64,000 nt of DNA, from IMG/VR virus record IMGVR_UViG_3300029305_004322, positions 92,855-156,854 of that record. One strand, written 5' to 3'. The translations under genes were made by a program, and so were the position numbers. Positions 9,396-26,623 of the stretch are shown here, piece after piece. Origin of the DNA: a virus (Duplodnaviria; Caudoviricetes). Within the stretch, counting starts at the first letter, position 1. Every line of letters begins with the position of its first letter. The notes under the pieces are model-generated. The model ran no database searches. It saw nothing but the letters and a program-made list of their open reading frames with translations, and was not told the DNA's origin.

Positions 9396-9421
9396 TTTGT
9401 GTTTCTCCTTTTATAAAAATT

Positions 9422-10639: not shown

Positions 10640-10641
10640 AA

Positions 10642-11190: not shown

Positions 11191-11193
11191 ATA

Positions 11194-11739
11194 TTATTCT
11201 CCGATCACTTCGATTTGACACATTTTCATAGTGGTCAATGCTGCTTTATGAGTTTCAGGGGTTACGCCAGCACAGCAAGAAGCATCAACAATGATTTTAG
11301 TCTCAGGAAGGAAAGCTTTAAGAAGCATCGCATTAGAAACCACACAGATGTCAGTACAAAGACCAATGAGTGTAATTTCACCAATTCTCTCATACTGTTC
11401 ACCATATTCTTTTAAAGTTTCAGCTATATAAGTACTGCCAAAAGTTGCCTTTTTAACATAGTCAACATTGTTTAAACGGAAAAGAAGATCATCAACCTCT
11501 CTATTAAGTTCCCATCCAGTAGTTCCATCAATACAATGCTCTACAGGTAGTAATCTTCCTTCCTGAGTTACAGAATAATCTCTTCTGTTATGGGTATCCT
11601 TGGTTACAATTATATCCTGACCATCAAAATTTTTGATCTTTTCAATGACCTTTGGTACAATTGCTTGTGCTTCCTTAGTTCCAAGAGCACCGTCGATAAA
11701 ATCATTTTGCATATCGACAACGATTAAAACTTTTTTCAT
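11194..11739 (-). CDS. pncA: Nicotinamidase (isochorismatase-family cysteine hydrolase)
   Basis: VVDMQNDFIDGALG, DTH, HCIDGT.GW, K.TFGS, GLCTDICV; lies two genes upstream of pncB. Confidence 0.88.
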   Translation of the reverse strand: MKKVLIVVDMQNDFIDGALGTKEAQAIVPKVIEKIKNFDGQDIIVTKDTHNRRDYSVTQEGRLLPVEHCIDGTTGWELNREVDDLLFRLNNVDYVKKATFGSTYIAETLKEYGEQYERIGEITLIGLCTDICVVSNAMLLKAFLPETKIIVDASCCAGVTPETHKAALTTMKMCQIEVIGE

Positions 11740-11785
11740 TTTTGTTTCTCCTTGTAAAAAATATTGATTTTTGAATCAAATTTAG

Positions 11786-11794
11786 GATATATAG
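11786..11794 (-). promoter_or_regulatory. Putative early promoter motif TATATATC upstream of the pncA operon
   Basis: The same motif occurs at 3991, 4991, 14231, 17804 and 23896, each upstream of non-structural genes in the correct orientation. Confidence 0.5.
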
Positions 11795-11822
11795 TTAAAA
11801 CGAGGATAAATACGGAATATGA

Positions 11823-12110
11823 TTATTCATCTAAGATACATTCAGGATACTCCTTAGACCAATAGCCACCATCTTCTAAAAACCATTCTATCTGTGGCCA
11901 ATAATCCATTACAAACTCAGAATTAAGTCTATCAAGCTCATCTAATGATAGTTCATCACCTATAAAAAGATCAAAACTATCAAATACATCATACCAAAAT
12001 TCATCATCGTTATAATAAGGATCTTGATATGCATTTGGAACATCTGGGTTGGGTTGTATTTGCCATTTAAATTTTAGGTTAAATATTTGATGCTTTGTTA
12101 ATGTTTTCAT
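11823..12110 (-). CDS. LTKxQIFxL family paralog 3 (acidic, divergent body)
   Basis: MKTLTKHQIFNLKFKW N-terminus. Confidence 0.8.
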   Translation of the reverse strand: MKTLTKHQIFNLKFKWQIQPNPDVPNAYQDPYYNDDEFWYDVFDSFDLFIGDELSLDELDRLNSEFVMDYWPQIEWFLEDGGYWSKEYPECILDE

Positions 12111-12417
12111 TTATATATCCTTCTTTCTTCATTTTCTCATAGAGCGCAGTAGATAATTTTTGACTGTTAATTATTATCTGCCAGTTTACATAATTTTTCA
12201 TTTCTTCAATGAAGTCTTCTGATAACTGTTGGTATCTAGAAATACCATCCCAATCTAACTGATCTTTGAAATCTCTTATAAATTCCTCAGATAAAATAGC
12301 TTTGTATGCAACATCTATAAAGAATAATTTTTGAAAAAGTGGACTTTCAAAATTTCCCTTCTCTACACCCCATTTAAACTTTAAATCGAATATCTGTTTC
12401 TTAGTTAGTGATACCAT
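12079..12417 (-). CDS. Trp-repeat paralog 4
   Basis: LTKKQIFDLKFKW, LSEEFIRDFKDQLDW, EGYI. Confidence 0.85.
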   Translation of the reverse strand: MVSLTKKQIFDLKFKWGVEKGNFESPLFQKLFFIDVAYKAILSEEFIRDFKDQLDWDGISRYQQLSEDFIEEMKNYVNWQIIINSQKLSTALYEKMKKEGYINENINKASNI

Positions 12418-12746
12418 GGTTTTATATAACCTTCATGTTTCATTTTTTGGTAAAAATCTAAAGAAATATTATCTCTTTGATATTCAATCAAACATCTCCA
12501 ATCTATATATTCTCTCAACTCATAGATAAATTCTTCTGATGATAATTTTTGCCACATACAAACACTTTTCCAATCTAAATTATCTTTAAACTCTCTCATA
12601 AAGTCTTCAGATAATTCAGTAGTATATGCTAAAACTCTAAAGAATAGTAAAACATCGCCTTCGTCTAATAGACCAGTATCTAAGTTCCATTTAAACTTTA
12701 AATCAAATATCTGTTTTTTCGTTAGTGGTTTTGGTAAAATACTCAT
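12405..12746 (-). CDS. Trp-repeat paralog 5
   Basis: PLTKKQIFDLKFKW, LSEDFMREFKDNLDW, EGYI. Confidence 0.85.
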   Translation of the reverse strand: MSILPKPLTKKQIFDLKFKWNLDTGLLDEGDVLLFFRVLAYTTELSEDFMREFKDNLDWKSVCMWQKLSSEEFIYELREYIDWRCLIEYQRDNISLDFYQKMKHEGYIKPWYH

Positions 12747-12780
12747 AATAATTTCCTTTAACGAGTCATTAAAAAAGAAA

Positions 12781-12810
12781 GAAGATTACCTAATGAAATA
12801 GGTAATCTTC
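12781..12810 (-). terminator. Intrinsic terminator (GATTACC/GGTAATC family)
   Basis: GAAGATTACCTA / TAGGTAATCTTC. Confidence 0.75.
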
Positions 12811-12818
12811 TAAACGTT

Positions 12819-13259
12819 TTATTGTGTTAATGCTTTTCTTGTATCATCTAATAGACTTGGTGGTAAAAACCGTTCTTTGTTTAAATAGTTCAAGTATTCT
12901 GACATTTCATCTAAAAATGATAAAGAAAGTTTCTGGAACATAAGAATATACGGCCAGTATAGATAATCTTTATACTTTTTCATAAATTCTTCAGAAAGTT
13001 CATAGTGTTCACAAATGCAATAAACATTCACCCATGTTACTTGCTCTATAAACTCACTAAGGAATTCTTCAGTTAGTTTATCTTTATGATTTGTAATAAG
13101 AAAATTCCAAGTTTCTTCATTTTCGTACCAACTTAGAAAATTCTTATAATAGCCACCGTATCTACCAAGATCAATATTATTCCTTCCAATTTCATCTATT
13201 TCAGGATACTTGAACTGTAAATCAAATAGTTGTTTTTTAGTTAGTTCTAGTGGTTTCAT
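12819..13259 (-). CDS. Trp-repeat paralog 6
   Basis: MKPLELTKKQLFDLQFKY (start moved to 13259 to match the family), LSEEFMKKYKDYLYW. Confidence 0.8.
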   Translation of the reverse strand: MKPLELTKKQLFDLQFKYPEIDEIGRNNIDLGRYGGYYKNFLSWYENEETWNFLITNHKDKLTEEFLSEFIEQVTWVNVYCICEHYELSEEFMKKYKDYLYWPYILMFQKLSLSFLDEMSEYLNYLNKERFLPPSLLDDTRKALTQ

Positions 13260-13260
13260 G

Positions 13261-13536
13261 TTAGCTGTATCTACTATATTCTCCCATTCTATTTGCAGAT
13301 GGTAACTCAATTATAGATGCATATGCTTCTTTCTCAGTGTAATAATACTTGTCTACATGTCTTACAACTGTAGAAGTTATATCTCCTAATGAAACAATAT
13401 ACTTTTGCTTATTACCAAGTGAATACTGAGCAAGTAAGTAACCATGATTTACTTCATGATATTCTTTAAAGCCTTCTGCCCACCAGACCTGTTCAAGATA
13501 ATCATCAGGTACATTAAGATTGTTTTTTCTGGACAT
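13261..13536 (-). CDS. Hypothetical protein
   Basis: GGAGG SD, 91 aa. Confidence 0.75.
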   Translation of the reverse strand: MSRKNNLNVPDDYLEQVWWAEGFKEYHEVNHGYLLAQYSLGNKQKYIVSLGDITSTVVRHVDKYYYTEKEAYASIIELPSANRMGEYSRYS

Positions 13537-13565
13537 ATGATTAAACCTCCAAAGTTAATAATTTA

Positions 13566-14192
13566 TTACCAACAAAAAACAGCCAAGAATGCATCATCAT
13601 CTGTGTAATAAAATCTATCATGATTCTTTTGGTCGGAAATATAGTCAAGTTGTTTCTTATATTGCTTCTTAAATTGATTGATTATATCTTGGTCGAAATA
13701 ATCGACACTCATTTCAGTGATAAATTCATGCATATCTCGCCAAAATCTTATATCGTAAAACTTATTATAGAAATCACTAGTATGATATTGTTTAACGAAA
13801 TCATCAGTAATACTGAAATATTTACCTCCGAGATCGTCATACTGAGAATCATCTAAAGTTGGTTCTATGTAATGCTCTTTTATCATATCATTGATAAAGT
13901 TGTTAGAAAATGGTGGAAATCTAACTTTTATAGAAAACCAGTCTATATCTTTTTTATCCTTGAATTTTCTAAAAACTTCTTCTGATATTGATTCGTTATT
14001 AGAAAGCTCATAGAAGTCCAAATACTCATTAAATTCGTCAATGAAGTCATTAGGTAACTCGCAATTTTCAGAAATCCAATCCCAGTACTCTTTATGATTC
14101 CACCAATTTTTCTTTTTCATTATACTTGGTGATGCCTTAATGTTCCATTTGAGCTGCAAATCAAATACTTGTTGCTTAGTTAGTGGTTTCAT
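13566..14192 (-). CDS. Trp-repeat paralog 7
   Basis: MKPLTKQQVFDLQLKW, WDWISENCELPNDFIDEF, internal KEHYI. Confidence 0.85.
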   Translation of the reverse strand: MKPLTKQQVFDLQLKWNIKASPSIMKKKNWWNHKEYWDWISENCELPNDFIDEFNEYLDFYELSNNESISEEVFRKFKDKKDIDWFSIKVRFPPFSNNFINDMIKEHYIEPTLDDSQYDDLGGKYFSITDDFVKQYHTSDFYNKFYDIRFWRDMHEFITEMSVDYFDQDIINQFKKQYKKQLDYISDQKNHDRFYYTDDDAFLAVFCW

Positions 14193-14352
14193 AGTCTATC
14201 CTTTCCTTATTAAAATTTTACTAAGGTAATGATATATAAATAAAATTTTCATTCATTTTTAATGTTTTGATAAATTATATTTTTACATGAAAAACAATAG
14301 ATTAATAGGAAAACTTACTAATTCATAAGGAAAGGATGGAGTAAGAAAAGTT

Positions 14353-15180
14353 ATGATTTTAAATGAAAAACAAACAGAAATGTATAAAAATTGTGTGTTC
14401 CTGAACGAAAGTTTATTTAATAAACAATCCGTAGGTTACTACGCAACTACATATCCAGTAAGTGGTAATACGTTAAGAACTAACACTAGTGTACATGAGA
14501 CAAAAAGCAAAACATTAAGAGTTCAAATAGGTTTTAGTGCTAAAGGACGATTAGCAGAATGGAAAGAACATGAATCAAGTATTAATGAATATAATACTCC
14601 TATCATCATAAACAGAAAGTATGAATCTGCTTTAAAAAACTTAAAGATTTACTTATATAAGGTAAGATTTCAAGGTTCATTTGTTAGTAAGAGTGATAAA
14701 AAATACGGTAAACAATTAAGAACAGAAACAGAAATATTAGAAACTGAAGTTGATAGTGCTGCTAATTTCATCAAGAAATATAATATCCCAATTACATTTG
14801 AAGATAGTAAGAGTAATCCTGATGAGCGTAAAAAGCTGCTAGTATTTGCAATAAATACTTTCAAGGAAGAGTTAAAAGCAATAAAAGCTAAGTATCCAAT
14901 AAAGAACTCAATTGGCATTTTAGATTATGCTAGTGAATCTTATAAGGATAACTACAGAGATGACTTTATAGATGGTGTTAAGGATAAACTTCCTATAGGT
15001 GATTATGACTTACTTAAATTTAGTAAGACTCCTAGAGACACAGATATTCAAAATGAATTCTGGAAGTATTCTGATGAGTTTGAAAGAAATGTTAATGCAA
15101 AGTTATCTAAGTATAAATGCCAGATAAAAGCAGATGGTGACTGGGATGACGGTTACTATTATTTAAAAGTCCTAAAGTAA
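14353..15180 (+). CDS. Putative internal head protein with shared leader MxLNExQxEMYKxCxFLNE
   Basis: Leader shared with 15198 and 15829; late-type promoter at 14293-14304. Confidence 0.7.
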   Translation: MILNEKQTEMYKNCVFLNESLFNKQSVGYYATTYPVSGNTLRTNTSVHETKSKTLRVQIGFSAKGRLAEWKEHESSINEYNTPIIINRKYESALKNLKIYLYKVRFQGSFVSKSDKKYGKQLRTETEILETEVDSAANFIKKYNIPITFEDSKSNPDERKKLLVFAINTFKEELKAIKAKYPIKNSIGILDYASESYKDNYRDDFIDGVKDKLPIGDYDLLKFSKTPRDTDIQNEFWKYSDEFERNVNAKLSKYKCQIKADGDWDDGYYYLKVLK

Positions 15181-15197
15181 AGGAGTGAAATAAAAAG

Positions 15198-15788
15198 ATG
15201 AAGCTTAATGAAAAACAAATAGAAATGTATAAAGATTGTACATTTTTGAATGAAGGAATTGTTGGAGCAGGATTAACAATTACTGCCGTGTTAGCTATTC
15301 TTACTGCTGCAGACGTCATTGTTGAGGGTGTCTTAAATAAAAAGGCTATAAAAGCTTTACCTATTGCTATGGATGATTATGCTAGTATAAAAAAATTACC
15401 TAAATGCAGTGAGGTAAAGTTAATTACACTAGGAAATAATAGTTTTAGTTTAGACTATATAAATAAACACCCAGAACTAAAAAAGTATTTAATAAAAGAT
15501 TATGAAACTACACATGACGAAAAACCAAAATCTGATAAAGATTTAATACAGTATTTAAATGGATTTTGTTTTGAATATCAAAACAAACTTCAATTTTATA
15601 TGGAATTTGTAGGATATAAAAATTCAATGCAGCATTGTAAGTTCTTTAATAAAATTTTTACTAAAGAACATAAAAACTATGTAGATGCTATTGCATATAT
15701 AAAACTAGTCCAAGAATCAAATTTAAAAATTTCTATTAATGTAAGAAATTTTATAAATGAATACAAACGATTAAAAAATGCTAAGTAA
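15198..15788 (+). CDS. Putative internal head protein with shared leader followed by a hydrophobic segment
   Basis: MKLNEKQIEMYKDCTFLNE then GIVGAGLTITAVLAILTAA. Confidence 0.7.
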   Translation: MKLNEKQIEMYKDCTFLNEGIVGAGLTITAVLAILTAADVIVEGVLNKKAIKALPIAMDDYASIKKLPKCSEVKLITLGNNSFSLDYINKHPELKKYLIKDYETTHDEKPKSDKDLIQYLNGFCFEYQNKLQFYMEFVGYKNSMQHCKFFNKIFTKEHKNYVDAIAYIKLVQESNLKISINVRNFINEYKRLKNAK

Positions 15789-15793
15789 TAAAT

Positions 15794-15823
15794 AAGAGGA
15801 TTACCTACTTTGGTAATCCTCTT
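15794..15823. terminator. Bidirectional terminator (GATTACC/GGTAATC family)
   Basis: AAGAGGATTACC / GGTAATCCTCTT between convergent genes. Confidence 0.75.
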
Positions 15824-15828
15824 TAAAT

Positions 15829-16269
15829 TTACTTAACATATTTAAACTTAATCTGAAAATTATCATCTTCATGATAAAAAGAAATCTTTACAATAAACTC
15901 ACTAAAATCTAAATAGTAGTTTGATACAGTATCATGCAACTCAGTTTTATCTCTTACTAGTTTCTTTAAACTACCTAAAACTTTATCGATATCCTTTATA
16001 CTATCACTCCATATCTTTTCATCTTTAGCATTTTCAAAACGAAATTTATCTGTAGGATATTTTAAAGTAATAATCAAATTGTGGTCATCTTTATTGGCAT
16101 TCACTGATTTTATCGTTTTTATTTGAAGTATCTTAGTTGATAAAGCTGAGCTTAACTGAGCTATAGTAGTATAGTAAGTTGCTGGAATAGTTTCTTTCTT
16201 TTTAGTTAGACTTTCATTTAAGAAAATACAATTTTTATACATTTCTTTTTGATTTTCATTGAGTGTCAT
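15829..16269 (-). CDS. Putative internal head protein with shared leader
   Basis: MTLNENQKEMYKNCIFLNES. Confidence 0.7.
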   Translation of the reverse strand: MTLNENQKEMYKNCIFLNESLTKKKETIPATYYTTIAQLSSALSTKILQIKTIKSVNANKDDHNLIITLKYPTDKFRFENAKDEKIWSDSIKDIDKVLGSLKKLVRDKTELHDTVSNYYLDFSEFIVKISFYHEDDNFQIKFKYVK

Positions 16270-16364
16270 TTTTAGTATTTCTACCTTTCTTTATAAAAGA
16301 TTTCTATTTTTTACCATTTATACCAATTAAGATATAAGGGAAACTCGTATTAATTGTCATCTTA

Positions 16365-17657
16365 TTAGACCATACTATACCATGTGTCTCTTAGACCTGT
16401 TTTTTCATTTCTTATATCACACACTATTGCATTTACTGGCGATTTATATCCTTGTTGATGTTCCCAATAACTTGATGCACATATAGTTGGAAAATATCTT
16501 ACTCTTGAACCATTAATAGACTTTACTTCTTCATCATGATAATGGCCCAAGTTTATTTCAACAAACTTTGCATATGATAATTCTTCTTTTGCATATTTCA
16601 TTGGCAATTCTGCAATATTCTTTTTAGGAGCATCACCATGGTGGTATAATACCAAACCAACTCCATATCTTCTATATTTAATTGGATTTGGTGATATATC
16701 ACACGTAATATTCTTATCATTTCTAAAAGCATTTGAAACACTTCTTGCAAGCATATAACCGACTGTTCTATCATGATTACCACAAAGATATATGTATTCA
16801 ACTGGTGCTTTATCTCCCAGCATTGTAAGTGTATCTATTAATAAATCTTCTGCACACTCTGTTATCTTAGCTACTCTTCCATCTACTTGCTGGAAAGTAC
16901 CATTTGTAGTTTCTTGTTTATCATTATCTACATGGAGTAAATCTCCTAAAGTTACGAATACTATCTTTTTAAATTTACGTCCTTTACATCTTTCAAGTAT
17001 ATCATTAATGCATTGGAAGAATCTTTGTTTTACTATCTTCAAATCATAATCTACATTGGTTTCTTCTCTCCATGATAGTAAACCAATATGTAAATCAGGA
17101 ATTTTTATCTCTAATATTTCGCCATCTGGATCATAATCATAACTACAAGTAGGTAACTTATCTTTTGAATAGTCTTTATCCTTAAAATAGTCATCTATAT
17201 CTTCAAATGTAATCTCTACCTTATCTTTTGGTTTTACAGTAAGTTTGCTCTGATATAAGAGTGCTTTTTTATTATCTTTTGCTTGCGCTTGCCAGTAGTT
17301 TGTTTTATAATTGAGTACTTCCCATTGTCTTGGATTAAGATTATGTGCTTCTATTATTTCTTCTGGGCTTATATCTTTTTCATTTTCCATGACAGTTAGA
17401 ATATCTTCAAACACTCTACTTCCATCTGCTCTTATTTCATAGCTTTTTTGCTGGATTCTTTCCTCTGATTCATTGATTTTTATGTCTTGTTCTTGTTGAG
17501 TTTTAAGTTTTCTTTCACGTCTCCATACATTTCTTGCTTTATCGTAGCATTGTTGGAAAGTTAAATCTGGATAATCGATTGCTAGATTAGTAGCTATCTC
17601 TCTCCATGTTAGTCCATTGTTTCGCATTTGAAACACTTTTTCATCAAAGGTCAACAT
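16365..17657 (-). CDS. Calcineurin-like metallophosphoesterase with an N-terminal HTH-like region
   Basis: PDLHIG, GDLLHVDN, GNHD, HHGD and GHYH motifs; GLTWREIA at the N-terminus. Confidence 0.85.
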   Translation of the reverse strand: MLTFDEKVFQMRNNGLTWREIATNLAIDYPDLTFQQCYDKARNVWRRERKLKTQQEQDIKINESEERIQQKSYEIRADGSRVFEDILTVMENEKDISPEEIIEAHNLNPRQWEVLNYKTNYWQAQAKDNKKALLYQSKLTVKPKDKVEITFEDIDDYFKDKDYSKDKLPTCSYDYDPDGEILEIKIPDLHIGLLSWREETNVDYDLKIVKQRFFQCINDILERCKGRKFKKIVFVTLGDLLHVDNDKQETTNGTFQQVDGRVAKITECAEDLLIDTLTMLGDKAPVEYIYLCGNHDRTVGYMLARSVSNAFRNDKNITCDISPNPIKYRRYGVGLVLYHHGDAPKKNIAELPMKYAKEELSYAKFVEINLGHYHDEEVKSINGSRVRYFPTICASSYWEHQQGYKSPVNAIVCDIRNEKTGLRDTWYSMV

Positions 17658-17870
17658 AATTCACCCTTTCTTTTTAAATTTAATGTATTAAGTTATATGC
17701 TTTATACATTGTTTAATAACTTGTTTTTCATAAGAAGATTAGCAACTATTTTCTTAATTATTCTTCTTATATTTTTTCCAATTCGTATTATCAACCCTTA
17801 CATCTATATATCTTTCAACTATAAGAACCATTGTTAGTTTAAATTTACCATACAAAAGGAGATATATACT

Positions 17871-18488
17871 ATGTACAGATTTTATGATTACGCCAAATAT
17901 TACAATTATCCTGAGAACCTTTTCAGAGCAATTTTAGATTCAGATGATGAAAAATATACTTCCGATATAGGTGATAGACTTATCAGTGTCATACAAAATG
18001 ATGAAATTTTTCCTGATAGGTCTAAAGATATCCTTAAACTATATTTTTCTGATGGATTAGCCTTAAAAGAGATTAGTAAAATACATGACATAACAACAGG
18101 AAGAATAACACAAATCATACTTAAAGAACTAAGAAAATTAAGAATGAGAGAAAGGATGAGTTATATTAATAATGGTGGATTTAGTGAGTATAAGTCAAGG
18201 AACTATTCTAGTAGAAATGTTAATGGAGTTGACAGTAGTAATGGATTATTTTTCTGGACTGTTAATGGAATTAGTATGGTTTTCATTAAACATGACAAAA
18301 TGAAAGTTAGAATCGAAAGAGCTATGACTAGGAAAGGGATTAAGACTTTTGATGAGATATTGAAATTAAATAGTAGGAAGGAACTTTATGATATACGTGG
18401 TATAGGTAATGCTGCTATTACTAGGATTATGGAGTACTTTGAGCATCTTGGAATTGATGTTGATAAGTTTAAAGAACCATGGGAATAA
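17871..18488 (+). CDS. Fusion of a sigma70 region-4-like HTH and an RNA polymerase alpha-CTD-like domain
   Basis: DILKLYF...LKEIS...ITTGRITQIILKELRKLR (sigma4) and VRIERAMTRKGIKTFDEIL...ELYDIRGIGNAAITRI (alpha-CTD HhH). Confidence 0.65.
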   Translation: MYRFYDYAKYYNYPENLFRAILDSDDEKYTSDIGDRLISVIQNDEIFPDRSKDILKLYFSDGLALKEISKIHDITTGRITQIILKELRKLRMRERMSYINNGGFSEYKSRNYSSRNVNGVDSSNGLFFWTVNGISMVFIKHDKMKVRIERAMTRKGIKTFDEILKLNSRKELYDIRGIGNAAITRIMEYFEHLGIDVDKFKEPWE

Positions 18489-18490
18489 TA

Positions 18491-18569
18491 AAAAAAAGAA
18501 ACTCTTATTACCAAGAGTTTCTTTTTTTTTTTTGAAAGAAGATTACCTAATTCATTTAGGTAATCTTCT
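18491..18569. terminator. Back-to-back terminators for convergent genes
   Basis: AAGAAACTCTT/AAGAGTTTCTT plus T-run, and AGAAGATTACCTAA/TTAGGTAATCTTCT. Confidence 0.75.
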
Positions 18570-18654
18570 ATAATTTTCTATACATTCTAATCCAAAATAG
18601 TTTGCTGCTCTTATAGTACGGCTTAGATCTAGTCCATCCCATAAGTTATGTTTA

Positions 18655-18981
18655 TCATTCAAAATTAAAATAATCCAGCCACCAGTCAGGATCATCAGTA
18701 TTAGGATTATCAATATGTTTAAACTCTGTAAATAATTCTGATTCATATATACCATCATATAATTTATCAGTTCCAACTTCTTTAATTACATAAGTAAATT
18801 CTTTAAAAAATAAACCGCTCTTCTTACTAGATACTTCCTCAACAGTATACTCAACACAGAATCTTAAAGTTCGTTTTAATATATTGGGGCGGATTTCAAC
18901 TATCTTAAATACCTTATCGCCTACTTTAAATCTAGGCTTATCACCACTTTTATAAAATGTTTTTGCGTCTAACCATCCCAT
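18655..18981 (-). CDS. Hypothetical protein (SH3-like barrel)
   Basis: PRFKVGDKV...YTV...Y.I...ESEL pattern; AGGAG SD. Confidence 0.7.
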   Translation of the reverse strand: MGWLDAKTFYKSGDKPRFKVGDKVFKIVEIRPNILKRTLRFCVEYTVEEVSSKKSGLFFKEFTYVIKEVGTDKLYDGIYESELFTEFKHIDNPNTDDPDWWLDYFNFE

Positions 18982-19045
18982 AATACTTACTCCTTATCTT
19001 TTTATTTTATTGTTTTTCATACATTTTTAATACTTTATCGAATTT

Positions 19046-19279
19046 TTATCCAAAATAGTACTTCTCGACACTAATAACTTCAGTATCATTCCAAATAATT
19101 TCCCAATCCTCATCATGACCTGATGAACAGTTAGTACAACTACATAAACTAGCTGTATTACCATCGTTATTAGTAAGTGAGACTTGTATGATGAGTTCTT
19201 TATTACAGATAGGACATATTGGGAAGAGTTTGTGGGAGTTGATAGTGGTATTATTGATGAAAGGGTAGGGTGAGGTCAT
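19046..19279 (-). CDS. Small zinc-finger protein
   Basis: CPIC...CTNC; ATGA overlap with the upstream endonuclease gene. Confidence 0.7.
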   Translation of the reverse strand: MTSPYPFINNTTINSHKLFPICPICNKELIIQVSLTNNDGNTASLCSCTNCSSGHDEDWEIIWNDTEVISVEKYYFG

Positions 19280-20271
19280 ATATCTAACTCCTTAAGATAT
19301 TCATTTAGATCTTTCTTTAAAACTTTTTCTAAATTATCAAAGTCTTTGTAACTAATTCGTATGAGACCAATATTGTTATCTAAACAATAGTTAGTTTTGA
19401 TTTCATCATGTAATTGAATTGTATCTAAGTCAGCTGCATAAGAACCAAAATTAGCTTTTTCGTAATGTTGTATACCATCAAACTCTATACAAAGATCATA
19501 AGCTGGAATATAAAAATCAAATGGTAAAGGATTTTTATCTCTACAGTCTTTAAATCTGTATTGCTGTATAAATTCTATATTTCTACTTTCTAAGACTTTT
19601 CTTACTCTTTGCTCACCTACAGATTCATTACATCTTGGACATTTATAGTCTTTTCTTTTGAAATGGTCTATATCGGTATCGAAGTCTCTACCACAACCAC
19701 CAATATGTAAGATTTTTATCAAACTCTTAGTGTTTTTATAATTGTCTGAAAGAAGTTTATATTCACCAGAATGTTTAGTTTCAACAATTTTCTTAACATC
19801 TTCATAAGATAACCTATTTGGATGATTAATTACTTGGTATTGTCTAGAACATATAGGACATCTAGTATTTGCTTTATTCTTTGGATTTGTTAAGAATCCA
19901 ACAGTTGGTTTTTTAAATTTTTCACCACATATTTTATGGAAAAATTCCATTGGTGTTTTGTTATCTTTACACTCAACACTTAGTAATTCGTATTCATCTC
20001 CATCTGGTAGGTTTTTGATTTCTTCTCTAAAACTTTCTAAAGTTCTTTCTTTATTTCCATAACATTTTGGACATCTTCTTCCTTGTTGAAATTTATTTGG
20101 TGTAACTTCATATTGATGTCCACATGTGTTATGCCTCATTTTAATTTTTACATCAGTTTTCACATATTTTCCTAAAACCGTATACTCATCTCCCACTAAA
20201 CTATAAACTAAATCTCTAAATTCTTTATCTGTCATAGGAGGAACATAACCCTTTGCATTTTTATTACTCAT
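19276..20271 (-). CDS. Free-standing homing endonuclease (Vsr/DUF559-like EDxHD nuclease with Zn-ribbon repeats)
   Basis: Repeated H..CG...CP.C modules; LPFDFYIP...IEFDGIQH...HDEIK...LIRISY; own AACA-N6-TA promoter at 20321-20332. Confidence 0.8.
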   Translation of the reverse strand: MSNKNAKGYVPPMTDKEFRDLVYSLVGDEYTVLGKYVKTDVKIKMRHNTCGHQYEVTPNKFQQGRRCPKCYGNKERTLESFREEIKNLPDGDEYELLSVECKDNKTPMEFFHKICGEKFKKPTVGFLTNPKNKANTRCPICSRQYQVINHPNRLSYEDVKKIVETKHSGEYKLLSDNYKNTKSLIKILHIGGCGRDFDTDIDHFKRKDYKCPRCNESVGEQRVRKVLESRNIEFIQQYRFKDCRDKNPLPFDFYIPAYDLCIEFDGIQHYEKANFGSYAADLDTIQLHDEIKTNYCLDNNIGLIRISYKDFDNLEKVLKKDLNEYLKELDI

Positions 20272-20350
20272 ATTATTTTCCTTTCTTATATTTCTTATTT
20301 TTATAACCAGGTGTATAATATATATTTTTGTTCTCTTTTAACAAATAAAA

Positions 20351-20380
20351 ATCCCCTATTCCATTTAAGGAATAGGGGAT
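20351..20380 (-). terminator. Terminator after the major capsid gene
   Basis: ATCCCCTATTCC / GGAATAGGGGAT. Confidence 0.8.
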
Positions 20381-20417
20381 CAATATATCTAGCTATACTC
20401 TATTAAGAATTCCTAGA

Positions 20418-22331
20418 TTAATATCCAGGAGTCTGAGGTCTAATATCTTAGTTTGACATTTGTTAGATGTCAGTCTTCTATTTTCATAGAAGTAGAGATT
20501 ATATCATAATCCATTTCTCGCTTTTGGATTCTAAATACAGATCGCAAACTTATGCGACACTTAATCGTTGAACCTTATTTCTAAGGATGCTGATTGGCAA
20601 TAGCTTTTCCAGCAATTCTTTTAGATTTGATATGCATTTCTGCATAAAACCGCTATATTTGTTAACGGCACCGATATTATTCTTGATAGTAATACGGCAG
20701 ATAAGGGGAGTGAACTCCTCAAGTGCATGACGCTTAGTCATCATAAGACTAGGAACGTTAGGCATATTAGGATCACGGTAACCTCTTTCTACGTTAAAGG
20801 TGTAAGGATAGTACTTGTAGGTCATGAGACGATCAATTCCAGGTACGAAGAACATAATGAACGCACCTGCAGGAACTAGGTCACTAGAAACCATCTCATA
20901 CTTGTTAGCACCAGAGAAAGCACCAAGGTTGAAGGATACATCAACACCAGACATCTGGTCAGAAGTGTGGTTGAATACCCAGTCAACGTTAGGAATGATC
21001 TGCATGTCAATGGGGTTACCAATGATCATGAACTTACCACCGTGGAACTTAGCATCAGACTTCATCTTGATTGCATAGTAGTCAATGACAGTCTTCAGCT
21101 CTTCACGCCAGCTCTTAGGAGTACCATTGTAACCAGCGGAAGGAATCATATTGAACTCACCTAAGTACTGAATGTTATTTACTTCGATAGAGTTGTTAAG
21201 GAAGTTGTAAATCTCAATTTCAAGCTGCTGAGCAACGGTCTGAGACATTAAGTCAACAACTTCAGCTGCGCCATCGATATTGTAGATAGCCATAGTATCC
21301 TGAAGCCACTCAATAGGCAGAGGAGCATTCAGGTGGCTGCCAACACCGATGGTAACGTCCTTAGTAAGAACGTCGAAGCTTACAGACTGACCGTAGTCAT
21401 TTGCTTCTTGAGAGAGACGAGCATCAATAAATGCATGAGTAATCATGTTGCCAGAAGACATTAAAGTGAACTTACCATCTGCATAGTCAACACGACCAAG
21501 TAGAGTCTCGTAAACTTCACCGTACTTAGTAACTACACCAGTAGTAGGATCAGTTAACTGAACGGGAATAGCAACACGAGCAGAAATAAGAGCATTCAGG
21601 TCGGTCTTGATGTGAACACGAATGGTCATCTCATCAATGTCACCACCTGCATAGCCATTCATGCTACCAGCAGCAGCCTGTTCAGCAGCTTGAGCAGCAG
21701 CCTGAACTGCAGCCTTGTTAACCTTAACAGTCTCAACATAGAAGACCTTGTCAATGGTGTCAGTGCCTTTTAGAGCAGGAACCTGTGGGAAACCATTAGC
21801 ATAGAGGTCGAAGTCAATCATAGGAAGTACAAGACCATCAGCAGGGTTAACGAATCTAGGAAGCTGAGCTTCTCTGTTGTTTAGATTATTGATAGCATCG
21901 GGAAGCTCTTTCTTGTTGCCTTCAGCATCCATTAAGTATGCCTTGGTGTAAGAAATAGCAAAACGAGGAGTTGCAACAACCTGAGTAGGAATAGCATGCT
22001 TTAGAGCTACCTTTGCCCACATCTTACGAATGGTAGGCATAGATAAGCCAGCGATTTGCTGAACGCCAGATACAGATGCTTCCTGAAGCATGCTGGTACG
22101 AGCGTTGTCCATAAGTTGATTGAAGTTTTCAACCTGGTCAGGCTCCATACCTTCAAGTAAGTGATCTTTATACTCATTGAAGAGAGTCTGCTCAGATAGA
22201 ATTTCTTCCATACCCTGATGGGAAGTCATCTGAATGCCTTTGTTAGCAAAGAACTCAGCTGCTTCTCTTAATACATCAGAGAAACCATCGTTCATTCTAG
22301 AACGAGCTGTTTGACGATATTCAATAGACAT
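20418..22331 (-). CDS. Major capsid protein (T4 gp23-like), spliced: 22331-20665 joined to 20439-20418 (or to 20446-20440)
   Basis: WLQDTMAIYNIDGAAEVVDLMSQTVAQQLEIEI resembles the gp23 LAQDLRAVHGMDADAEL segment; strong expression codon bias; near the prohead protease gene; the ORF-track C-terminus is intron sequence. Confidence 0.85.
20440..20664 (-). mobile_element. ORF-less group I intron in the major capsid gene
   Basis: Core AAUUGCUGGAA...AAUCAGCAUCCU...GGUUCAACGAUUA...GAUAUAAUC; P1 GCCGU|UA pairs with UAGCGGU giving the U-G pair; the 3' G is at 20440 or 20447. Confidence 0.85.
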
Positions 22332-22393
22332 AAGTTTAAATATCATACGTAATTTGATCGAAAGAGATCAAATCCAGTGTATGATTTCCTCCT
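22332..22393 (-). promoter_or_regulatory. Split ribosome-binding site: AGGAGG, then a hairpin, then AUG (capsid gene)
   Basis: SD at 22388-22393; outer stem AUCAUAC/GUAUGAU, inner stem AUUUGAUC/GAUCAAAU; AUG at 22331. Confidence 0.65.
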
Positions 22394-22530: not shown

Positions 22531-22562
22531 TACTTTTTTGTTTAGAAAAAATTTCGTTTTAG

Positions 22563-23156
22563 TTATTGATACATGACACTAATTTGTTTTACTATATCCG
22601 CATATGACTTTGTGGCTATTTTGATGTACATATAAAGCGTTAAAAGCTGCTTATAAGGCAAAATTAGGTACTGCTCAGTTAAAATAATTAATACCTTCTG
22701 TTTGTTTTCTTCCATTTTTTGGTTTACAAACATGTATATTTTTTGGGCATCATCTGAAAGATCTCTGGATAATATTTTATTTGTTGTTCCTAATAATTCT
22801 TCAATTACTTCTAGTAATGCTTTGTAGTCATTAAATAGCTTTCTTTTCTTAAAGATATCCTTGACATTTACTGAAGGACTACCAAGACCCATAGATGGAT
22901 CTCCACCCATTGTCATATCACCAGACATATTATTTCCACTGCCCATATCCATTTCTTCCATACCTGGGTCAAAACTTCCCTCACCCATATCATTCTCAAT
23001 CCCCATACTTGCATCTTGTTCTTGTGGTTCGTATGTAGTATTAGGTTCATTTGAGAATGTTGTTTGAGTTTGGTTAGTTTGTTGTACGTTACCAGGTGCT
23101 TCATTTAAAAGGGATAATAAGTATTCTTCACTTAAAATTTTAAAATCTCTTTCCAT
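22563..23156 (-). CDS. Probable prohead scaffold/core protein
   Basis: Directly upstream of the capsid gene; ILSEE and LLNE|A possible cleavage sites; acidic Met/Gly-rich linker. Confidence 0.55.
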   Translation of the reverse strand: MERDFKILSEEYLLSLLNEAPGNVQQTNQTQTTFSNEPNTTYEPQEQDASMGIENDMGEGSFDPGMEEMDMGSGNNMSGDMTMGGDPSMGLGSPSVNVKDIFKKRKLFNDYKALLEVIEELLGTTNKILSRDLSDDAQKIYMFVNQKMEENKQKVLIILTEQYLILPYKQLLTLYMYIKIATKSYADIVKQISVMYQ

Positions 23157-23180: not shown

Positions 23181-23786
23181 TTACATTTTGTAAATCTTTC
23201 TTCCTGAACTAAAGGAATTCTTAGATCGAGCTGCTTCTATATGGGACATCTTAAAATTATATTCTACACGCTTTAAATTAAATTCCAGTTCAGCTGACAT
23301 CTTCTTTAAAAGAATTAGTTGCTCTTTTTGTTCTTTTTTAGGTTTTTGTAACTTTTCTAAAATAGCAATCTGAGCATCAACAGCTGCTTTATCGCCTTTA
23401 AGTGTAGTATATACTTTTAGAGCTTTTTCTTGTTCCATTTTTCTACTGATGGCATTATTTGTAACAGTTCTAGTAATTGCCATTAGCGGCATACCAATTG
23501 TTTTACCTAAGAATGGGAATTTTGTCGACATTTTATATAATGTTTTGCTATGATAACCGTAGCCGTTAACGATATATTCTTCATCACTAACTCTTTTTTG
23601 CATGTGCTTAAGAATCTCATTGCCTTTATTGACTATTTTCTTCTTTAGTACGTCTTTCTTATTATCATCTTGAATGCTTTCAATTGGTTTGTTTTCATTC
23701 TTTTCTTCAGATAATAGATTTAGTTCTTCTAATAATACATTACTTTCATTTTCTATTTCTTGCAAAATATTCTTTTCGTCAATCAT
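23181..23786 (-). CDS. Probable processed head protein
   Basis: Acidic N-terminus with ILQE, LLEE and LLSE sites, basic body; late promoter at 23850-23861. Confidence 0.55.
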   Translation of the reverse strand: MIDEKNILQEIENESNVLLEELNLLSEEKNENKPIESIQDDNKKDVLKKKIVNKGNEILKHMQKRVSDEEYIVNGYGYHSKTLYKMSTKFPFLGKTIGMPLMAITRTVTNNAISRKMEQEKALKVYTTLKGDKAAVDAQIAILEKLQKPKKEQKEQLILLKKMSAELEFNLKRVEYNFKMSHIEAARSKNSFSSGRKIYKM

Positions 23787-24168: not shown

Positions 24169-24302
24169 GAAACTTTACTAAAAACTTCCTTTACTTAAAA
24201 AGGAAGTTTTTTTTTTTGGAATGTAATCGTATATCATAGCTTAAATTATAAAAGTCAACATTACATTAAATAATCTAATACAGAAAGGAGCTGTTATTTA
24301 AC

Positions 24303-26623
24303 TTGAGAGATGAAAAAATTAAGGGTTATATCATTTCTGAAGACGCTATGATTAGTACACCTAAGATTATCAGTGATAAATCTGGTCAGCCTACTGTCAT
24401 AGAAACTGTTCTTCAAGAGGGTGATATACAAAATAGAAATAAACGTATCTATCCTGCTGATGTAATTAAAAATGCTCTTAGATCTGAATATGTTCAAGAA
24501 CGTTTGAGAACTAAATCATGGTTGGGAGAGGCTGGTAAATAAGGATTGCCGATTTGCATAGTGATATGCAAACTACTTATTTCTTTAATTGCTGGAAGTA
24601 CTTAATATAAGGTAATCAGCATCCTTAATTTAAATTAAGGTTCAACGACTATAGAGAACTAAAATTGGTTCTAAATGAGAAACATCTGGTAAACAGATGA
24701 AGATATAGTCTAAACTCTAGTGTCTAAACTAGAGATGATAATCTGTGCAAGTGTAATGAACTTGTATGAATATTTTGCATCCATTATCCCCAACTGTAGA
24801 GAGACAGCTATACATTGATCAATCAAATCTATCTCACTTAATTACTGATGTTTGGTGGGAAAGAAACTTACTTAAAGGACGAGTAGAAACATGTCTAACT
24901 GAAAGAGGTCGAGACATGCAAGGCTTAATCAGACAAGGAATGCAAGTGGCTTTCTCAATGAGAGGATTCGGTAAACCCGAAATTTTAAGCTAAGTCTAAT
25001 AATTTACAAAAAAGAAAAACCACTCATGCAACAAATTATTAATTTTATTAAAAGGAGTTGATTACATGGGTGCTACTAAAACTTTAAAACAACGAGAAGA
25101 GATTCTAAAAGATAGAATTAAAAAACATTATCCTGATTATACGCTTATAACTCCATATCCACCTGAAGGTGCTAGAGGAGATATTGCATTAAGACATAAA
25201 GATGGACATATTTGGAATACTAAACCACGTTACTTAGATGATAAAGGGACATGTGGAGATCCTGCATTTTTTTATAAAAAACGTAAGGTATCTCATAGAG
25301 GTAATAAACCTATGACACAACAAGAATATGAAGAACGATTTTATTCACGTTGGTCTATAGATGTCTATGAAATCGTAGGACCTTTTAGTAAGGTACATAC
25401 TAATATAGCTGTCCTTTGTAAAAAATGTGGGGAAGTATGGTATCCAAAAGCTAATGATATGATTCACGATAAAATATCTAAAGGCTGTAAATATTGTTAT
25501 GGAACTATAAAACCTACTCTTGAAGAATATAAAAAGCAGGTTGAAGACCTAACGGATAAAGAATATACAGTCATAGCTGATGAATATATTGACTGTAAGA
25601 TTCCAATAAAAATGAAACATTTTTCAGATATTTGTAACAATCATGAATACGATTGTAGTCCAAATGAATTTATAAATCATAATGCTAGGTGTCCAAGATG
25701 CAATGAAATATTAGGTGAATCATTAGGAAGTAGAATGATAACAAAGTATTTAGAAACTCGAAATATCGAATATCAAAAAGAAGTTTGTTTTAAAGATTGT
25801 AGAGATATTTTACCATTGCCATTTGATTTTTATATAGAATCCTATGATATGCTTATTGAGTTTGATGGAAAACAACATTTTGAACCATCATATGGTTCAA
25901 CTAAAGAAAATAAAATAAAAAATCTTGAAAAAACTCAAAAGCATGATAGAATTAAAGATGAATGGGCAATTGAAAATAATATGAATTTTATCCGCATCTC
26001 ATATAAAGAGATGTCTGATATTGAAAAATTATTAGATGACTTTTTTAATAACTGTGCTGAATCCATAATATAAATTCTTTTAATTGCTGGAAACTCAAAA
26101 GACAATCAGCATCCTAGTATAGCTAGGTCCAACGACTATTGGCGTATTAAGTATTACGTCTATAAAGAATACCATTCATTAAAATGGTAAAGATATAGTC
26201 TAAACTTTACAGATATGTAAAGAATGTATAGCTTCACGTACTATACAAAATAACCTGCCAGTTTCAGAGAAAAAAGGCGATATTACCTATATCAAGGATC
26301 CACTCCATATTCTGACCTATGACTGGGTAATTCATCCTTCACACCGTCCTGCTTATATGACTTCCGTCTTACAAGAATCTACTTCTTATATGCCTGTTTC
26401 TGAGTCATATTTCATTCCTTTAACGGAAGATTCCATTATCAATTACCTTAACACTGAAAGTAAGAATGTAAAGTCTCTAAAGGATCAACTTAACTTCCAA
26501 GATGCCAAGACTTTAGGTAAGAAAGGCAACTTAATTTACTTCCAAGAAGGTAACACTATCTTAGCTGCTTATCTAGAAGACTACATAACTGTAGAACTTG
26601 ATAGATATTTAGCAAATTTGTAA
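24303..26623 (+). CDS. Prohead protease (T4 gp21-like), three exons: 24303-24536, 24778-24972, 26258-26623 (264 aa)
   Basis: Joined product reads NRNKRIYP...WLGEAG|HP...AFSMRGFG|PVSE...YDWVIHPSH, restoring all gp21-family motifs in frame. Confidence 0.9.
24537..24777 (+). mobile_element. ORF-less group I intron 1 in the prohead protease gene (241 nt)
   Basis: Exon ends GGU; P1 GGU|AA pairs with UUGCC (U-G); P10 GGAU pairs with AUCC; core UUGCUGGAA/AAUCAGCA, P7 GACUA/UAGUC; ends in G. Confidence 0.9.
24973..26257 (+). mobile_element. Group I intron 2 in the prohead protease gene, carrying a homing endonuclease in the P1 loop
   Basis: P1 GGAUUCGGU pairs with GCUGAAUCC (26056-26064); P10 AACUG pairs with CAGUU; core at about 26080-26210; terminal G at 26257. 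Confidence 0.9.
25066..26073 (+). CDS. Intron-encoded homing endonuclease (EDxHD/Vsr-like, Zn-ribbon repeats)
   Basis: LPFDFYIESYDMLIEFDGKQH...KHDRIKD...FIRISY; paralogous to 19276..20271; own promoter motif at 25030-25041. Confidence 0.85.
   Translation: MGATKTLKQREEILKDRIKKHYPDYTLITPYPPEGARGDIALRHKDGHIWNTKPRYLDDKGTCGDPAFFYKKRKVSHRGNKPMTQQEYEERFYSRWSIDVYEIVGPFSKVHTNIAVLCKKCGEVWYPKANDMIHDKISKGCKYCYGTIKPTLEEYKKQVEDLTDKEYTVIADEYIDCKIPIKMKHFSDICNNHEYDCSPNEFINHNARCPRCNEILGESLGSRMITKYLETRNIEYQKEVCFKDCRDILPLPFDFYIESYDMLIEFDGKQHFEPSYGSTKENKIKNLEKTQKHDRIKDEWAIENNMNFIRISYKEMSDIEKLLDDFFNNCAESII

What the first reader, a model, noticed from the sequence alone, without database searches (positions are those of the whole stretch)
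14353..16269. Three unrelated proteins share a 19-aa leader ending FLNE: probable capsid-targeting and cleavage tag for injected cargo
Seen: MILNEKQTEMYKNCVFLNE|S, MKLNEKQIEMYKDCTFLNE|G and MTLNENQKEMYKNCIFLNE|S, after which the proteins are unrelated. The genes lie on both strands and the first has a late-type promoter. Known: T4 internal proteins share an N-terminal capsid-targeting sequence removed by gp21 after (I/L)xE. This window encodes a gp21-like protease, and LxE sites recur in the capsid, 22563 and 23181 proteins. Inference: a portable packaging signal loads interchangeable effectors into the head for delivery at infection. In 15198, cleavage would expose a membrane-like helix.
Basis: partly seen in the sequence, partly recalled or inferred. 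Interest (0 to 1): 0.8.

Follow-up and report, generated by a model that had tools for sequence, protein, structure and literature searches.

The report
Shared head-loading tag on phage cargo proteins
Three unrelated small proteins of an uncultured giant phage start with the same 19-residue tag, which also heads at least 19 unrelated protein families in related phages and most likely loads them into the phage head before the head protease cuts it off, as in phage T4.

Summary
ORFs 14353-15180(+), 15198-15788(+) and 15829-16269(-) share a 19-aa N-terminus (M-x-L-N-E-x-Q-x-E-M-Y-K-x-C-x-F-L-N-E, then S or G). Their bodies are unrelated.

The window is part of an uncultured AR9/PBS1-like jumbo phage with a T4 gp21-family prohead protease. 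A profile of the leader, searched against 1.84 billion proteins, found only proteins that carry it at residue 1. In total 28 proteins fall into 19 unrelated body families.

- **Level of conservation:** it acts on the peptide, because synonymous codons vary freely.
- **Link to the head module:** the motif [FLIM]LNE+small occurs five times in this proteome. Four of these are at residues 16-20: the three leaders and the scaffold-like protein next to the capsid gene.
- **Cargo bodies:** 27 of 28 are basic (median pI 9.2), against a proteome median of 5.6. T4 internal proteins are also basic.
- **Expression:** leader operons carry the AR9 late-promoter motif at -51 to -68.
- **Turnover:** the cargo set differs between close relatives.

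Best reading (about 0.62): a T4-type capsid-targeting propeptide removed after Glu19. This is inferred, since no proteomics exist. I rate it a new member of a known kind, with moderate to high interest.

The parts
14353..15180 (+). Cargo gene A (275 aa). The leader is codons 1-19 (14353-14409), ending FLNE|S. The body is basic (pI 9.1) with no known family.
15198..15788 (+). Cargo gene B (196 aa). The leader is 15198-15254, ending FLNE|G, followed directly by a hydrophobic helix (residues 24-42). Body pI is 9.2. It starts 17 nt after A's stop, so it is probably co-transcribed with A.
15829..16269 (-). Cargo gene C (146 aa). The leader is 16213-16269, ending FLNE|S. The model shows a leader helix (5-19), a low-confidence linker (17-23) and a confident alpha/beta body (30-146). 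Body pI is 9.1.
14293..14304 (+). AR9-type late-promoter motif AACAATAGATTA, 60 nt upstream of A. The identical 12-mer lies 51 nt upstream of the leader operon in relative G001.
   Evidence: consensus from PMC5312081
17714..17725 (-). Late-promoter motif AACAAGTTATTA, 68 nt upstream of the exonuclease gene 16365-17657(-). Gene C lies directly downstream of that gene on the same strand.
15794..15823 (.). Perfect 12-bp hairpin (AAGAGGATTACC / GGTAATCCTCTT) between the convergent genes B and C. Probably a two-way terminator.
   Evidence: read from sequence
22563..23156 (-). Scaffold-like head-core protein. Its N-terminal 19 residues end LLNE|A, followed by an acidic Met/Gly-rich low-complexity stretch and a C-terminal helical part weakly similar to AR9 g116.
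23181..23786 (-). Small head-module protein with several LxE sites near its N-terminus (ILQE, LLEE, LSE). A late motif lies 75 nt upstream.
20550..22346 (-). Major capsid protein (gp23-like, 41% identical to AR9's). Conserved candidate maturation site ...SMLQE|ASVSG, about residues 85-90, aligned with AILQE|S in AR9.
24279..26623 (+). gp21-family (Peptidase_S77) prohead protease, read as three ORF fragments (24279-24542, 24760-24993, 26204-26623). An HNH endonuclease ORF (25066-26073) lies in the second gap. The C-terminal part contains VLQE|S.
   Evidence: AR9 g114 is likewise annotated as joined from two pieces

Best explanation
The 19-residue leader is a capsid-targeting propeptide of the T4 internal-protein type. 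Proposed mechanism:
1. The genes are transcribed late, together with the head genes.
2. The leader docks each protein onto the assembling prohead core. The scaffold-like protein 22563-23156, whose own N-terminus has the same length and ending, is the likely core partner.
3. Once the shell closes, the gp21-family protease cuts after Glu19 (F-L-N-E | G/S/T/A). This frees a basic mature protein that stays with the DNA and is released into the host at infection.
4. Because the tag is portable, recombination places it on new bodies, so the cargo set differs even between close relatives.

What is shown: the tag's portability, its peptide-level conservation, its motif link to the head module, the presence of the protease, the basic bodies, the promoter motif and the cargo turnover. 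What is inferred: the docking partner, the cut itself, packaging and ejection.

For B, and for two other families, the cut would leave a transmembrane helix at the new N-terminus. This suggests a membrane-acting ejection protein.
For: - **Portability:** a profile of the first 32 residues, searched against 1.84 billion proteins, gave 17 hits. 15 of them start at residue 1 of proteins 129-388 aa long. A DNA pattern scan and whole-record searches added more. In total 28 proteins fall into 19 body families by blastp.
- **Peptide-level selection:** invariant Leu3 uses 5 codons, Leu17 uses 4, and Phe16 is split 7 to 6.
- **Cut-site logic:** all studied gp21-family proteases cut after Glu in an x-X-E motif (PMC5694885). 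Here position 19 is Glu in 25 of 28 and position 20 is G/S/T/A in 23 of 28.
- **Link to the head module:** [FLIM]LNE[GSAT] occurs 5 times in 46,186 residues. Four are at residues 16-20: A, B, C and the scaffold-like protein. The capsid site (I/M)L(Q/M)E|(A/S) is conserved across the AR9 group. The protease C-terminus has VLQE|S.
- **Protease:** PF03420 scores above its cut-off here and in G001 and G003.
- **Basic bodies:** 27 of 28 have pI above 8 (median 9.2). Other 100-400 aa proteins of this phage have median pI 5.6, with 21% above 8 (p = 2.5e-11). T4 IPI-III have pI 8.9-9.5, and the IPI targeting sequence is also 19 residues ending ITE|A.
- **Late motif:** it lies at -51 to -68 of leader operons in all lineages, and no AR9-type early motif is present.
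- **Turnover:** complete relative G001, whose capsid protein is 86% identical, lacks the A and C bodies but has three other tagged bodies. In G001 the locus lies 2.7 kb from the capsid gene.
- **Model of C:** the leader helix is separate, and the only segment below pLDDT 50 is residues 17-23.
- **Precedent for B:** SPN3US gp47 loses a propeptide and has a transmembrane helix at its mature N-terminus (PMC5694885).
- **Contrast within the genome:** the two other constant-head families are acidic true paralogs without an LxE junction.
Against: - No virion proteomics or N-terminal data exist for this uncultured clade.
- The leader is absent from AR9, BpSp, SA1 and LPJP1, and AR9 has no comparable shared-leader family. 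The experimental AR9 virion proteome therefore cannot be used as an anchor.
- Some copies break the cut rule: the 191-aa family ends FLKD, one copy has FLKE|E, and the G001 B orthologue has FLNE|E, though LVLSE|G follows it.
- Gln7, Tyr11 and Cys14 are nearly invariant but are not explained by cleavage.
- The leader is not detectably amphipathic.
- The head modules of the second lineage (G002, G004, G005) were not recovered, so co-occurrence with the protease is shown for one lineage only.
- The background for the pI comparison comes from one genome, and the 28 proteins are not fully independent.
Confidence: 0.62

Rival explanations
1. The leader is a docking tag for a partner other than the prohead core. 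The partner could be a membrane site, a packaged enzyme complex or a host factor. It is either not removed by the prohead protease or removed by another enzyme.
For: Positions that a gp21-type cut does not need are nearly invariant: Gln7, Tyr11, Cys14 and Phe16. Three body families carry a transmembrane helix right after the tag. Some copies have Asp or a non-small residue at the junction.
Against: - The same [FL]LNE+small ending sits at the same residue number in the scaffold-like head protein.
- The uniformly basic bodies fit DNA-associated head proteins.
- The late motif, and the position next to the head genes in G001, also point to the head.
- AR9-like phages lie outside the nucleus-forming Chimalliviridae (PMC13282480), so a nuclear-import tag is unlikely.
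- In T4, an Asp at the last targeting-sequence position blocks processing but still allows packaging (PMC9026906). The exceptions therefore do not argue against head targeting.
Confidence: 0.15
2. The proteins are one fast-diverging paralog family. Their bodies are homologous beyond detection, and the N-terminus is simply the slowest-evolving part, with no sorting role.
For: This genome has two other multigene families with constant N-terminal heads and divergent bodies. All the bodies are orphans, so distant homology cannot be excluded.
Against: - Lengths run from 129 to 388 aa.
- Some bodies are membrane-anchored, one is P-loop kinase-like, and C is a compact alpha/beta domain.
- hhalign of the A family against the C family aligns residues 1-25 only.
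- Conservation stops sharply at residues 19-22 in all 28 proteins.
- The other two families behave differently: many body pairs are related, lengths are uniform, and bodies are acidic.
Confidence: 0.1
3. The leader is a regulatory N-terminal peptide, such as a degradation tag or a translation-control element, that times or limits the level of these proteins.
For: It is N-terminal, short and separable from the body. Nothing here excludes recognition by a host or phage protease other than the prohead protease.
Against: - This does not explain the shared ending with the scaffold-like protein.
- It does not explain the basic bodies.
- It does not explain the turnover of bodies at a locus beside the head genes.
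- An RNA-level element is ruled out by the free synonymous variation.
Confidence: 0.07
4. The shared 5' end is a DNA-level recombination or cassette boundary with no function as a peptide.
For: Within this genome the three copies are highly similar at the DNA level over about 57 nt. Bodies are swapped at these loci.
Against: Across 13 distinct leader DNAs, the invariant residues use many synonymous codons while the amino acids stay fixed. The upstream DNA is not conserved.
Confidence: 0.03

Closest known systems
T4 capsid targeting sequence (CTS) of internal proteins IPI, IPII, IPIII and Alt, removed by prohead protease gp21
   Same: - Both are short N-terminal tags of 10-19 residues in T4. 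IPI's is 19 residues ending ITE|A, and IPII and IPIII start MKTYQEFIAE|A.
- Both end in hydrophobic-x-Glu followed by a small residue.
- Both are fused to otherwise unrelated, basic, non-essential-looking proteins that vary among related phages (PMC3012670, PMC9026906).
- Both phages have a protease of the same family (PF03420).
- In both, the genes lie in variable regions.
   Different: - There is no sequence relationship to the T4 tags.
- This leader has a fixed 19-residue length, with a second L-N-E at residues 3-5 and near-invariant Gln7, Tyr11 and Cys14.
- It occurs in an AR9-like jumbo phage clade, not in Straboviridae.
- Some cargo carries a transmembrane helix.
- Packaging and cleavage are proven in T4 and only inferred here.
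Propeptides of ejection and inner-body proteins of giant phages phiKZ, 201phi2-1 and SPN3US
   Same: - These are jumbo phages with a gp21-family protease that cuts after Glu in x-X-E.
- Many of their head proteins are processed and ejected.
- SPN3US paralogs gp53 and gp54 share an identical 15-residue N-terminus.
- SPN3US gp47 has a transmembrane helix at its mature N-terminus (PMC5694885).
   Different: - Those propeptides are mostly over 100 residues long, and the P3 residue is A/S/G rather than L.
- The shared N-termini there belong to paralogs.
- Here a short tag heads many unrelated bodies.
AR9/PBS1 (Takahashivirus) head module
   Same: The capsid protein is 41% identical. The order protease, small head proteins, capsid gene is the same. 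The protease gene is interrupted in both. The AACA-N6-TA late-promoter motif is shared (PMC5312081).
   Different: AR9 and the other cultured relatives lack the leader and lack any shared-leader, unrelated-body family.

Membership tests
T4-type capsid-targeting propeptide (functional class) | A short N-terminal peptide shared by otherwise unrelated proteins of one phage | tested here: met
   19 residues, always at residue 1. 28 proteins fall into 19 body families.
T4-type capsid-targeting propeptide (functional class) | It ends at a site matching the prohead protease specificity (x-X-Glu, cut after Glu) | tested here: met
   L17-N18-E19 followed by G/S/T/A in 23 of 28. The same form occurs at the capsid site, the scaffold-like N-terminus and the protease C-terminus. 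The specificity itself is inferred from relatives (PMC5694885).
T4-type capsid-targeting propeptide (functional class) | The phage encodes a gp21-family prohead protease | tested here: met
   PF03420 scores 28.8 bits against a cut-off of 27 in this genome. It is also found in G001 and G003.
T4-type capsid-targeting propeptide (functional class) | Tagged proteins are incorporated into the prohead, and the tag alone is sufficient for packaging | not testable with these tools
   Needs virion proteomics or reporter fusions. The phage is uncultured.
T4-type capsid-targeting propeptide (functional class) | The tag is removed during head maturation | not testable with these tools
   There is only indirect support. 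The low-confidence linker at residues 17-23 in the model of C shows an accessible site, not a cut.
T4-type capsid-targeting propeptide (functional class) | The mature cargo is basic and DNA-associated | tested here: met
   Median pI is 9.2 against 5.6 for the proteome. T4 internal proteins have pI 8.9-9.5. DNA association itself was not tested.
Sequence homologue of the T4 CTS | Detectable sequence similarity to MKTYQEFIAE or MKTFKEFTSTTTPVSTITE | tested here: not met
   Compared by eye with the T4 record. Only the hydrophobic-x-Glu ending is shared. I do not file it as a homologue.
Sec/lipoprotein signal peptide | A hydrophobic core with a positively charged N-region, or a lipobox before the Cys | tested here: not met
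   The leader is hydrophilic with net charge 0 to -5. YK(N/D)C is not a lipobox.

The most novel reading that the evidence does not exclude
The leader is a sorting signal with requirements beyond a protease site, shown by the invariant Gln7, Tyr11, Cys14 and Phe16. It would tether cargo, possibly through the single Cys, to a specific packaged structure or to a non-capsid destination. That would define a new class of phage protein-sorting peptide. It would also give a sequence key for reading out the full set of delivered effectors, membrane-inserting ones included, in an uncultured jumbo-phage clade.
Probability: 0.12. Interest if true: 0.8.

Novelty: new member of a known kind. Interest (0 to 1): 0.62.

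Why it matters
If the tag is a head-loading signal, it works as a simple sequence key. It identifies, in uncultured giant phages, the proteins delivered into the host together with the DNA. In T4 such proteins include restriction inhibitors and host-takeover enzymes.

At least 19 orphan families become candidate early-acting effectors, including three membrane-anchored families and one kinase-like family. Their turnover between close relatives marks an arms-race locus.

The finding would also show that a short T4-style tag exists in a jumbo-phage lineage. Studied giant phages mostly use propeptides longer than 100 residues. A portable tag of this kind could in principle be used to load proteins into these capsids.

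Tried and rejected
- **Strict pattern scan:** the exact back-translated leader pattern found nothing in IMG/VR. A pattern restricted to the invariant positions worked.
- **Searches with protein A:** The search for related loci in viral contigs found nothing. The one metagenome scan gave only a distant leaderless protein sharing A's C-terminal 80 residues.
- The contexts of P0002, P0004, P0006 and P0007 and the 299-kb contig could not be fetched. Whether P0007's short N-terminus (MGIFFTEG) is real or a mis-called start is unknown.
- **Family scans:** Pfam, PHROGs, NCBIfam and PADLOC give nothing for A, B or C. For the other bodies they give only isolated marginal hits.
- **Structure searches for A:** PDB sequence search and the protein atlas gave nothing. 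The AlphaFold model of A was unusable (pLDDT 49).
- **Fold search for C:** no Foldseek match at E <= 0.001. The best exhaustive match, LppA (2v7s), has Z 8.9 at rmsd 4.6 A over 115 residues. That is within the range the tool calls common for unmatched models, so no function is assigned.
- **ADP-ribosyltransferase idea:** P0026 and its G001 orthologue have an LYHGS/LYHAS motif and a faint DUF3990 hit (E 0.025).
- **AR9 as an experimental anchor:** the leader is absent from AR9 and no analogous family exists there.
- **Papers:** the AR9 genome paper and the phiKZ protease paper are not held.
- **Introns:** Rfam found no group I intron in 13000-27500 at E <= 0.01. The intron reading of the split protease is not confirmed here.
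- **Promoter motif:** the genome-wide count of AACA-N6-TR is not enriched. Only the positional analysis is informative.
- **Amphipathic helix:** the hydrophobic moment of the leader equals the shuffled mean.
Full report
**What is in the window.** ORFs A (14353-15180, +, 275 aa), B (15198-15788, +, 196 aa) and C (15829-16269, -, 146 aa) begin with MILNEKQTEMYKNCVFLNE|S, MKLNEKQIEMYKDCTFLNE|G and MTLNENQKEMYKNCIFLNE|S. A fuzzy six-frame scan of the whole 156,854-base record finds exactly these three copies. The DNA alignment shows that similarity starts at the ATG and stops at about codon 20, and the upstream DNA is not conserved. A and B are 17 nt apart. B and C converge on a perfect 12-bp hairpin at 15794-15823. 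After the leader the proteins do not match by blastp, apart from a marginal uncorrected A-C hit. A profile-profile comparison of the A and C families aligns residues 1-25 only. B has a strongly hydrophobic segment at residues 24-42. None of the three matches Pfam, PHROGs or NCBIfam.

**What the genome is.** The record is an IMG/VR contig that CheckV rates 61% complete. Its major capsid protein (20550-22346, -) is gp23-like and 41% identical to that of Bacillus phage AR9/PBS1. Weaker matches go to Staphylococcus, Listeria and Yersinia jumbo phages. The head module resembles AR9's. It has a gp21-family protease (PF03420, 28.8 bits against a cut-off of 27) read as three ORF fragments with an HNH endonuclease ORF in one gap. 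It also has two small proteins (23181-23786 and 22563-23156) followed by the capsid gene. AR9's protease gene is likewise annotated as joined from pieces. Rfam does not call introns here, so I leave the nature of the interruptions open.

**The leader is a portable module.** Each body has only one or two relatives among 5.8 billion proteins. The orthologues keep the leader with substitutions: P0002 has MILNENQKSLYNNCIFLNES and P0006 has MILNESQKRMYENCIFLNES. A profile of the first 32 residues of A, B and C, run against 1.84 billion representatives, gave 17 hits at E <= 0.001. Fifteen of them begin at residue 1 of proteins 129-388 aa long, and the other two are long repetitive proteins. A DNA pattern built on the invariant positions found seven IMG/VR contigs. 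Profile searches of those records found more copies.

In all, 28 distinct leader proteins fall into 19 body families by blastp on residues 24 to the end. M1, L3, F16 and L17 are invariant. N4, E5, Q7, Y11, C14 and E19 are nearly invariant. Position 20 is G/S/T/A in 23 of 28, position 21 is Leu in 15, and conservation then stops. Across 13 distinct leader DNAs the invariant Leu3 uses five codons, Leu17 uses four and Phe16 is split 7 to 6. This follows genomic codon usage, so selection acts on the peptide and not on an RNA or DNA element.

**Link to head assembly.**
- The motif [FLIM]LNE[GSAT] occurs five times in the 46,186 residues of this genome's ORFs. Four are at residues 16-20: A, B, C and the protein 22563-23156, whose N-terminus is MERDFKILSEEYLLSLLNE|APGN.
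- That protein has an acidic low-complexity middle and a helical C-terminal part weakly similar to AR9 g116 (pairwise E 7e-4). AR9 g116 occupies the same position just before the capsid gene. It is not annotated as a virion protein, whereas its neighbours are. This fits a scaffold that leaves the head, although the label is an inference.
- Its counterparts in Staphylococcus phage SA1 (INILNE|A) and Listeria phage LPJP1 (NYLFE|A) keep the ending.
- The capsid proteins of this phage, AR9, BpSp and SA1 share (I/M)L(Q/M)E|(A/S) just before the conserved core. This is the expected place for a gp23-type maturation cut.
- The protease C-terminal part contains VLQE|S. C-terminal self-processing is known in this protease family (PMC5694885).
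- All characterised gp21-family proteases (T4, phiKZ, 201phi2-1, SPN3US) cut after Glu in an x-X-E motif (PMC5694885).

**Independent properties of the cargo.** 27 of 28 mature bodies (18 of 19 families) have pI above 8, with a median of 9.2. The other 100-400 aa proteins of this phage have a median pI of 5.6, and 21% are above 8 (Mann-Whitney p = 2.5e-11). T4 internal proteins are basic and thought to contact DNA (PMC9026906). Computed from the T4 record, they have pI 8.9-9.5. Their targeting sequences read MKTYQEFIAE|A (IPII, IPIII) and MKTFKEFTSTTTPVSTITE|A (IPI, 19 residues).

The AlphaFold model of the C family is good (mean pLDDT 80, pTM 0.71). It shows the leader as a separate helix (residues 5-19, pLDDT 50-60). 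The only segment below pLDDT 50 is residues 17-23, and the alpha/beta body (30-146) is confident. The fold has no convincing match. The model of A was unusable.

**Timing.** The AR9 late-promoter consensus is AACA-N6-TA/G (PMC5312081). Genome-wide this loose motif is not enriched (294 found, about 334 expected). Upstream of genes it is orientation-biased: 29 of 137 in the right orientation, 8 in the wrong one, and 19.9 +/- 4.2 after shuffling. More tellingly, leader genes or operons in every lineage carry it at -51 to -68:
- AACAATAGATTA before A, and the identical 12-mer before the G001 operon.
- Close variants before the G001 156-aa gene and before the G002, G004 and G005 genes.
- A copy before the exonuclease gene that precedes C.

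No AR9-type early motif is present. With a chance of roughly 3% per gene for such a window, this is far beyond chance. That it works as a late promoter in these phages is inferred from AR9.

**Locus plasticity.** G001 is a 319,626-base relative that CheckV rates complete, with a capsid protein 86% identical. Its leader locus lies 2.7 kb from the capsid gene and holds a B orthologue plus a new 143-aa body. Two further leader genes, of 156 and 219 aa, lie elsewhere in the genome. The A and C profiles hit G001 only through the leader, so those bodies are absent.

A second lineage (G002, G004, G005) slots different leader bodies between conserved neighbours. These include a P-loop kinase-like protein (AAA_33, E 2e-4). 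They sit beside a 191-aa family whose leader has drifted to MKLNENQxExQSKTxFLKD. In T4, an Asp at the last targeting-sequence position blocks processing but not packaging (PMC9026906). By analogy, this family may be loaded but not trimmed.

**Controls and cautions.**
- AR9, BpSp, SA1 and LPJP1 lack the leader.
- In AR9, every shared N-terminus belongs to paralogs with related bodies. The AR9 virion proteome therefore cannot anchor the inference.
- The same procedure on this genome recovers A, B and C. It also reveals two other constant-head families: 13 tandem genes starting MTNEEIRKRFEFDL, and the Trp-repeat family starting ...LTKKQIFDLKFKW.
- Those families are true paralogs (31 of 78 and 17 of 28 body pairs related). 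They have uniform lengths, acidic bodies (median pI 5.3 and 4.7) and no LxE junction. The FLNE leader family is therefore a different kind of thing.
- The head modules of the second lineage were not recovered.

**Verdict.** The best explanation is a T4-type capsid-targeting propeptide cut after Glu19 by the gp21-family protease, loading a changing set of basic proteins for delivery with the DNA. For B and two other families the cut would expose a transmembrane helix, as in SPN3US gp47 (PMC5694885). Packaging, cleavage and ejection are inferred and not shown, so I put this at about 0.62.

It is a new example of a known kind of system, in a phage lineage where it has not been described.

Noticed in passing
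G000:C1:7268-11610 (-), outside the window: Tandem array of 13 small genes (96-135 aa), all starting MTNEEIRKRFEFDL. Bodies are acidic (median pI 5.3) and only partly related to each other (31 of 78 pairs). It looks like a fast-diverging paralog array of unknown role.
   Followed up: partly
window 5985-14192 and G000:C1:28568-29750: Eight-member family with a constant N-terminal head (...LTKKQIFDLKFKW) and Trp-repeat bodies. Bodies are acidic (median pI 4.7) and 17 of 28 pairs are related. A 487-aa protein with the same repeats occurs in lineage-2 contig L009:4088-5551.
   Followed up: partly
window 24279-26623 (+): The prohead protease reads as three ORF fragments, with an HNH endonuclease ORF (25066-26073) in the second gap. 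Relatives G001 and G003 show the same split. Rfam calls no group I intron here at E <= 0.01, so the nature of the intervening sequences is unconfirmed.
   Followed up: partly
window 20337-20456 (-): Weak Rfam hit to the L10 leader (36 bits, gathering score 44) just 3' of the capsid ORF end. It is probably spurious or part of an unrecognised structured element.
   Followed up: no
L003:1168-2751 (metagenome contig JAEEGL011389339.1): A leaderless 527-aa protein shares only the last ~80 residues of A (...GDWDDG[YF]Y...). A's C-terminus may therefore be a separate module.
   Followed up: no
L027:910-1569 (-) in G001, and P0026: A leader-bearing 218-219 aa body with an LYHGS/LYHAS motif and a faint DUF3990 hit (E 0.025). 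It could be an ADP-ribosyltransferase-like enzyme, which would parallel T4 Alt. Not tested.
   Followed up: no
L009:1297-1947 (+) in G004 (same protein in L010 and L012): A leader-bearing 216-aa protein with a Walker A motif and weak AAA_33 and nucleotide-kinase-like hits.
   Followed up: partly
L008:8980-9555, L009:2059-2631, L014:7480-8055: A conserved 190-191 aa family with a drifted leader (MKLNENQxExQSKTxFLKD). It lacks Tyr11 and Cys14 and ends in Asp, and it sits next to the variable leader genes.
   Followed up: partly
window 17871-18488 (+): A 205-aa protein with a sigma-70 region 4 domain (E 1.4e-8) and a helix-hairpin-helix tail, lying between the leader locus and the head module.
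   Followed up: no
L011:8159-8758 (-) in G001/G003: The B orthologue has five extra residues after the leader (FLNE-ELVLSE|GVGL...). This creates a second L-x-E+Gly site immediately before the transmembrane helix.
   Followed up: no
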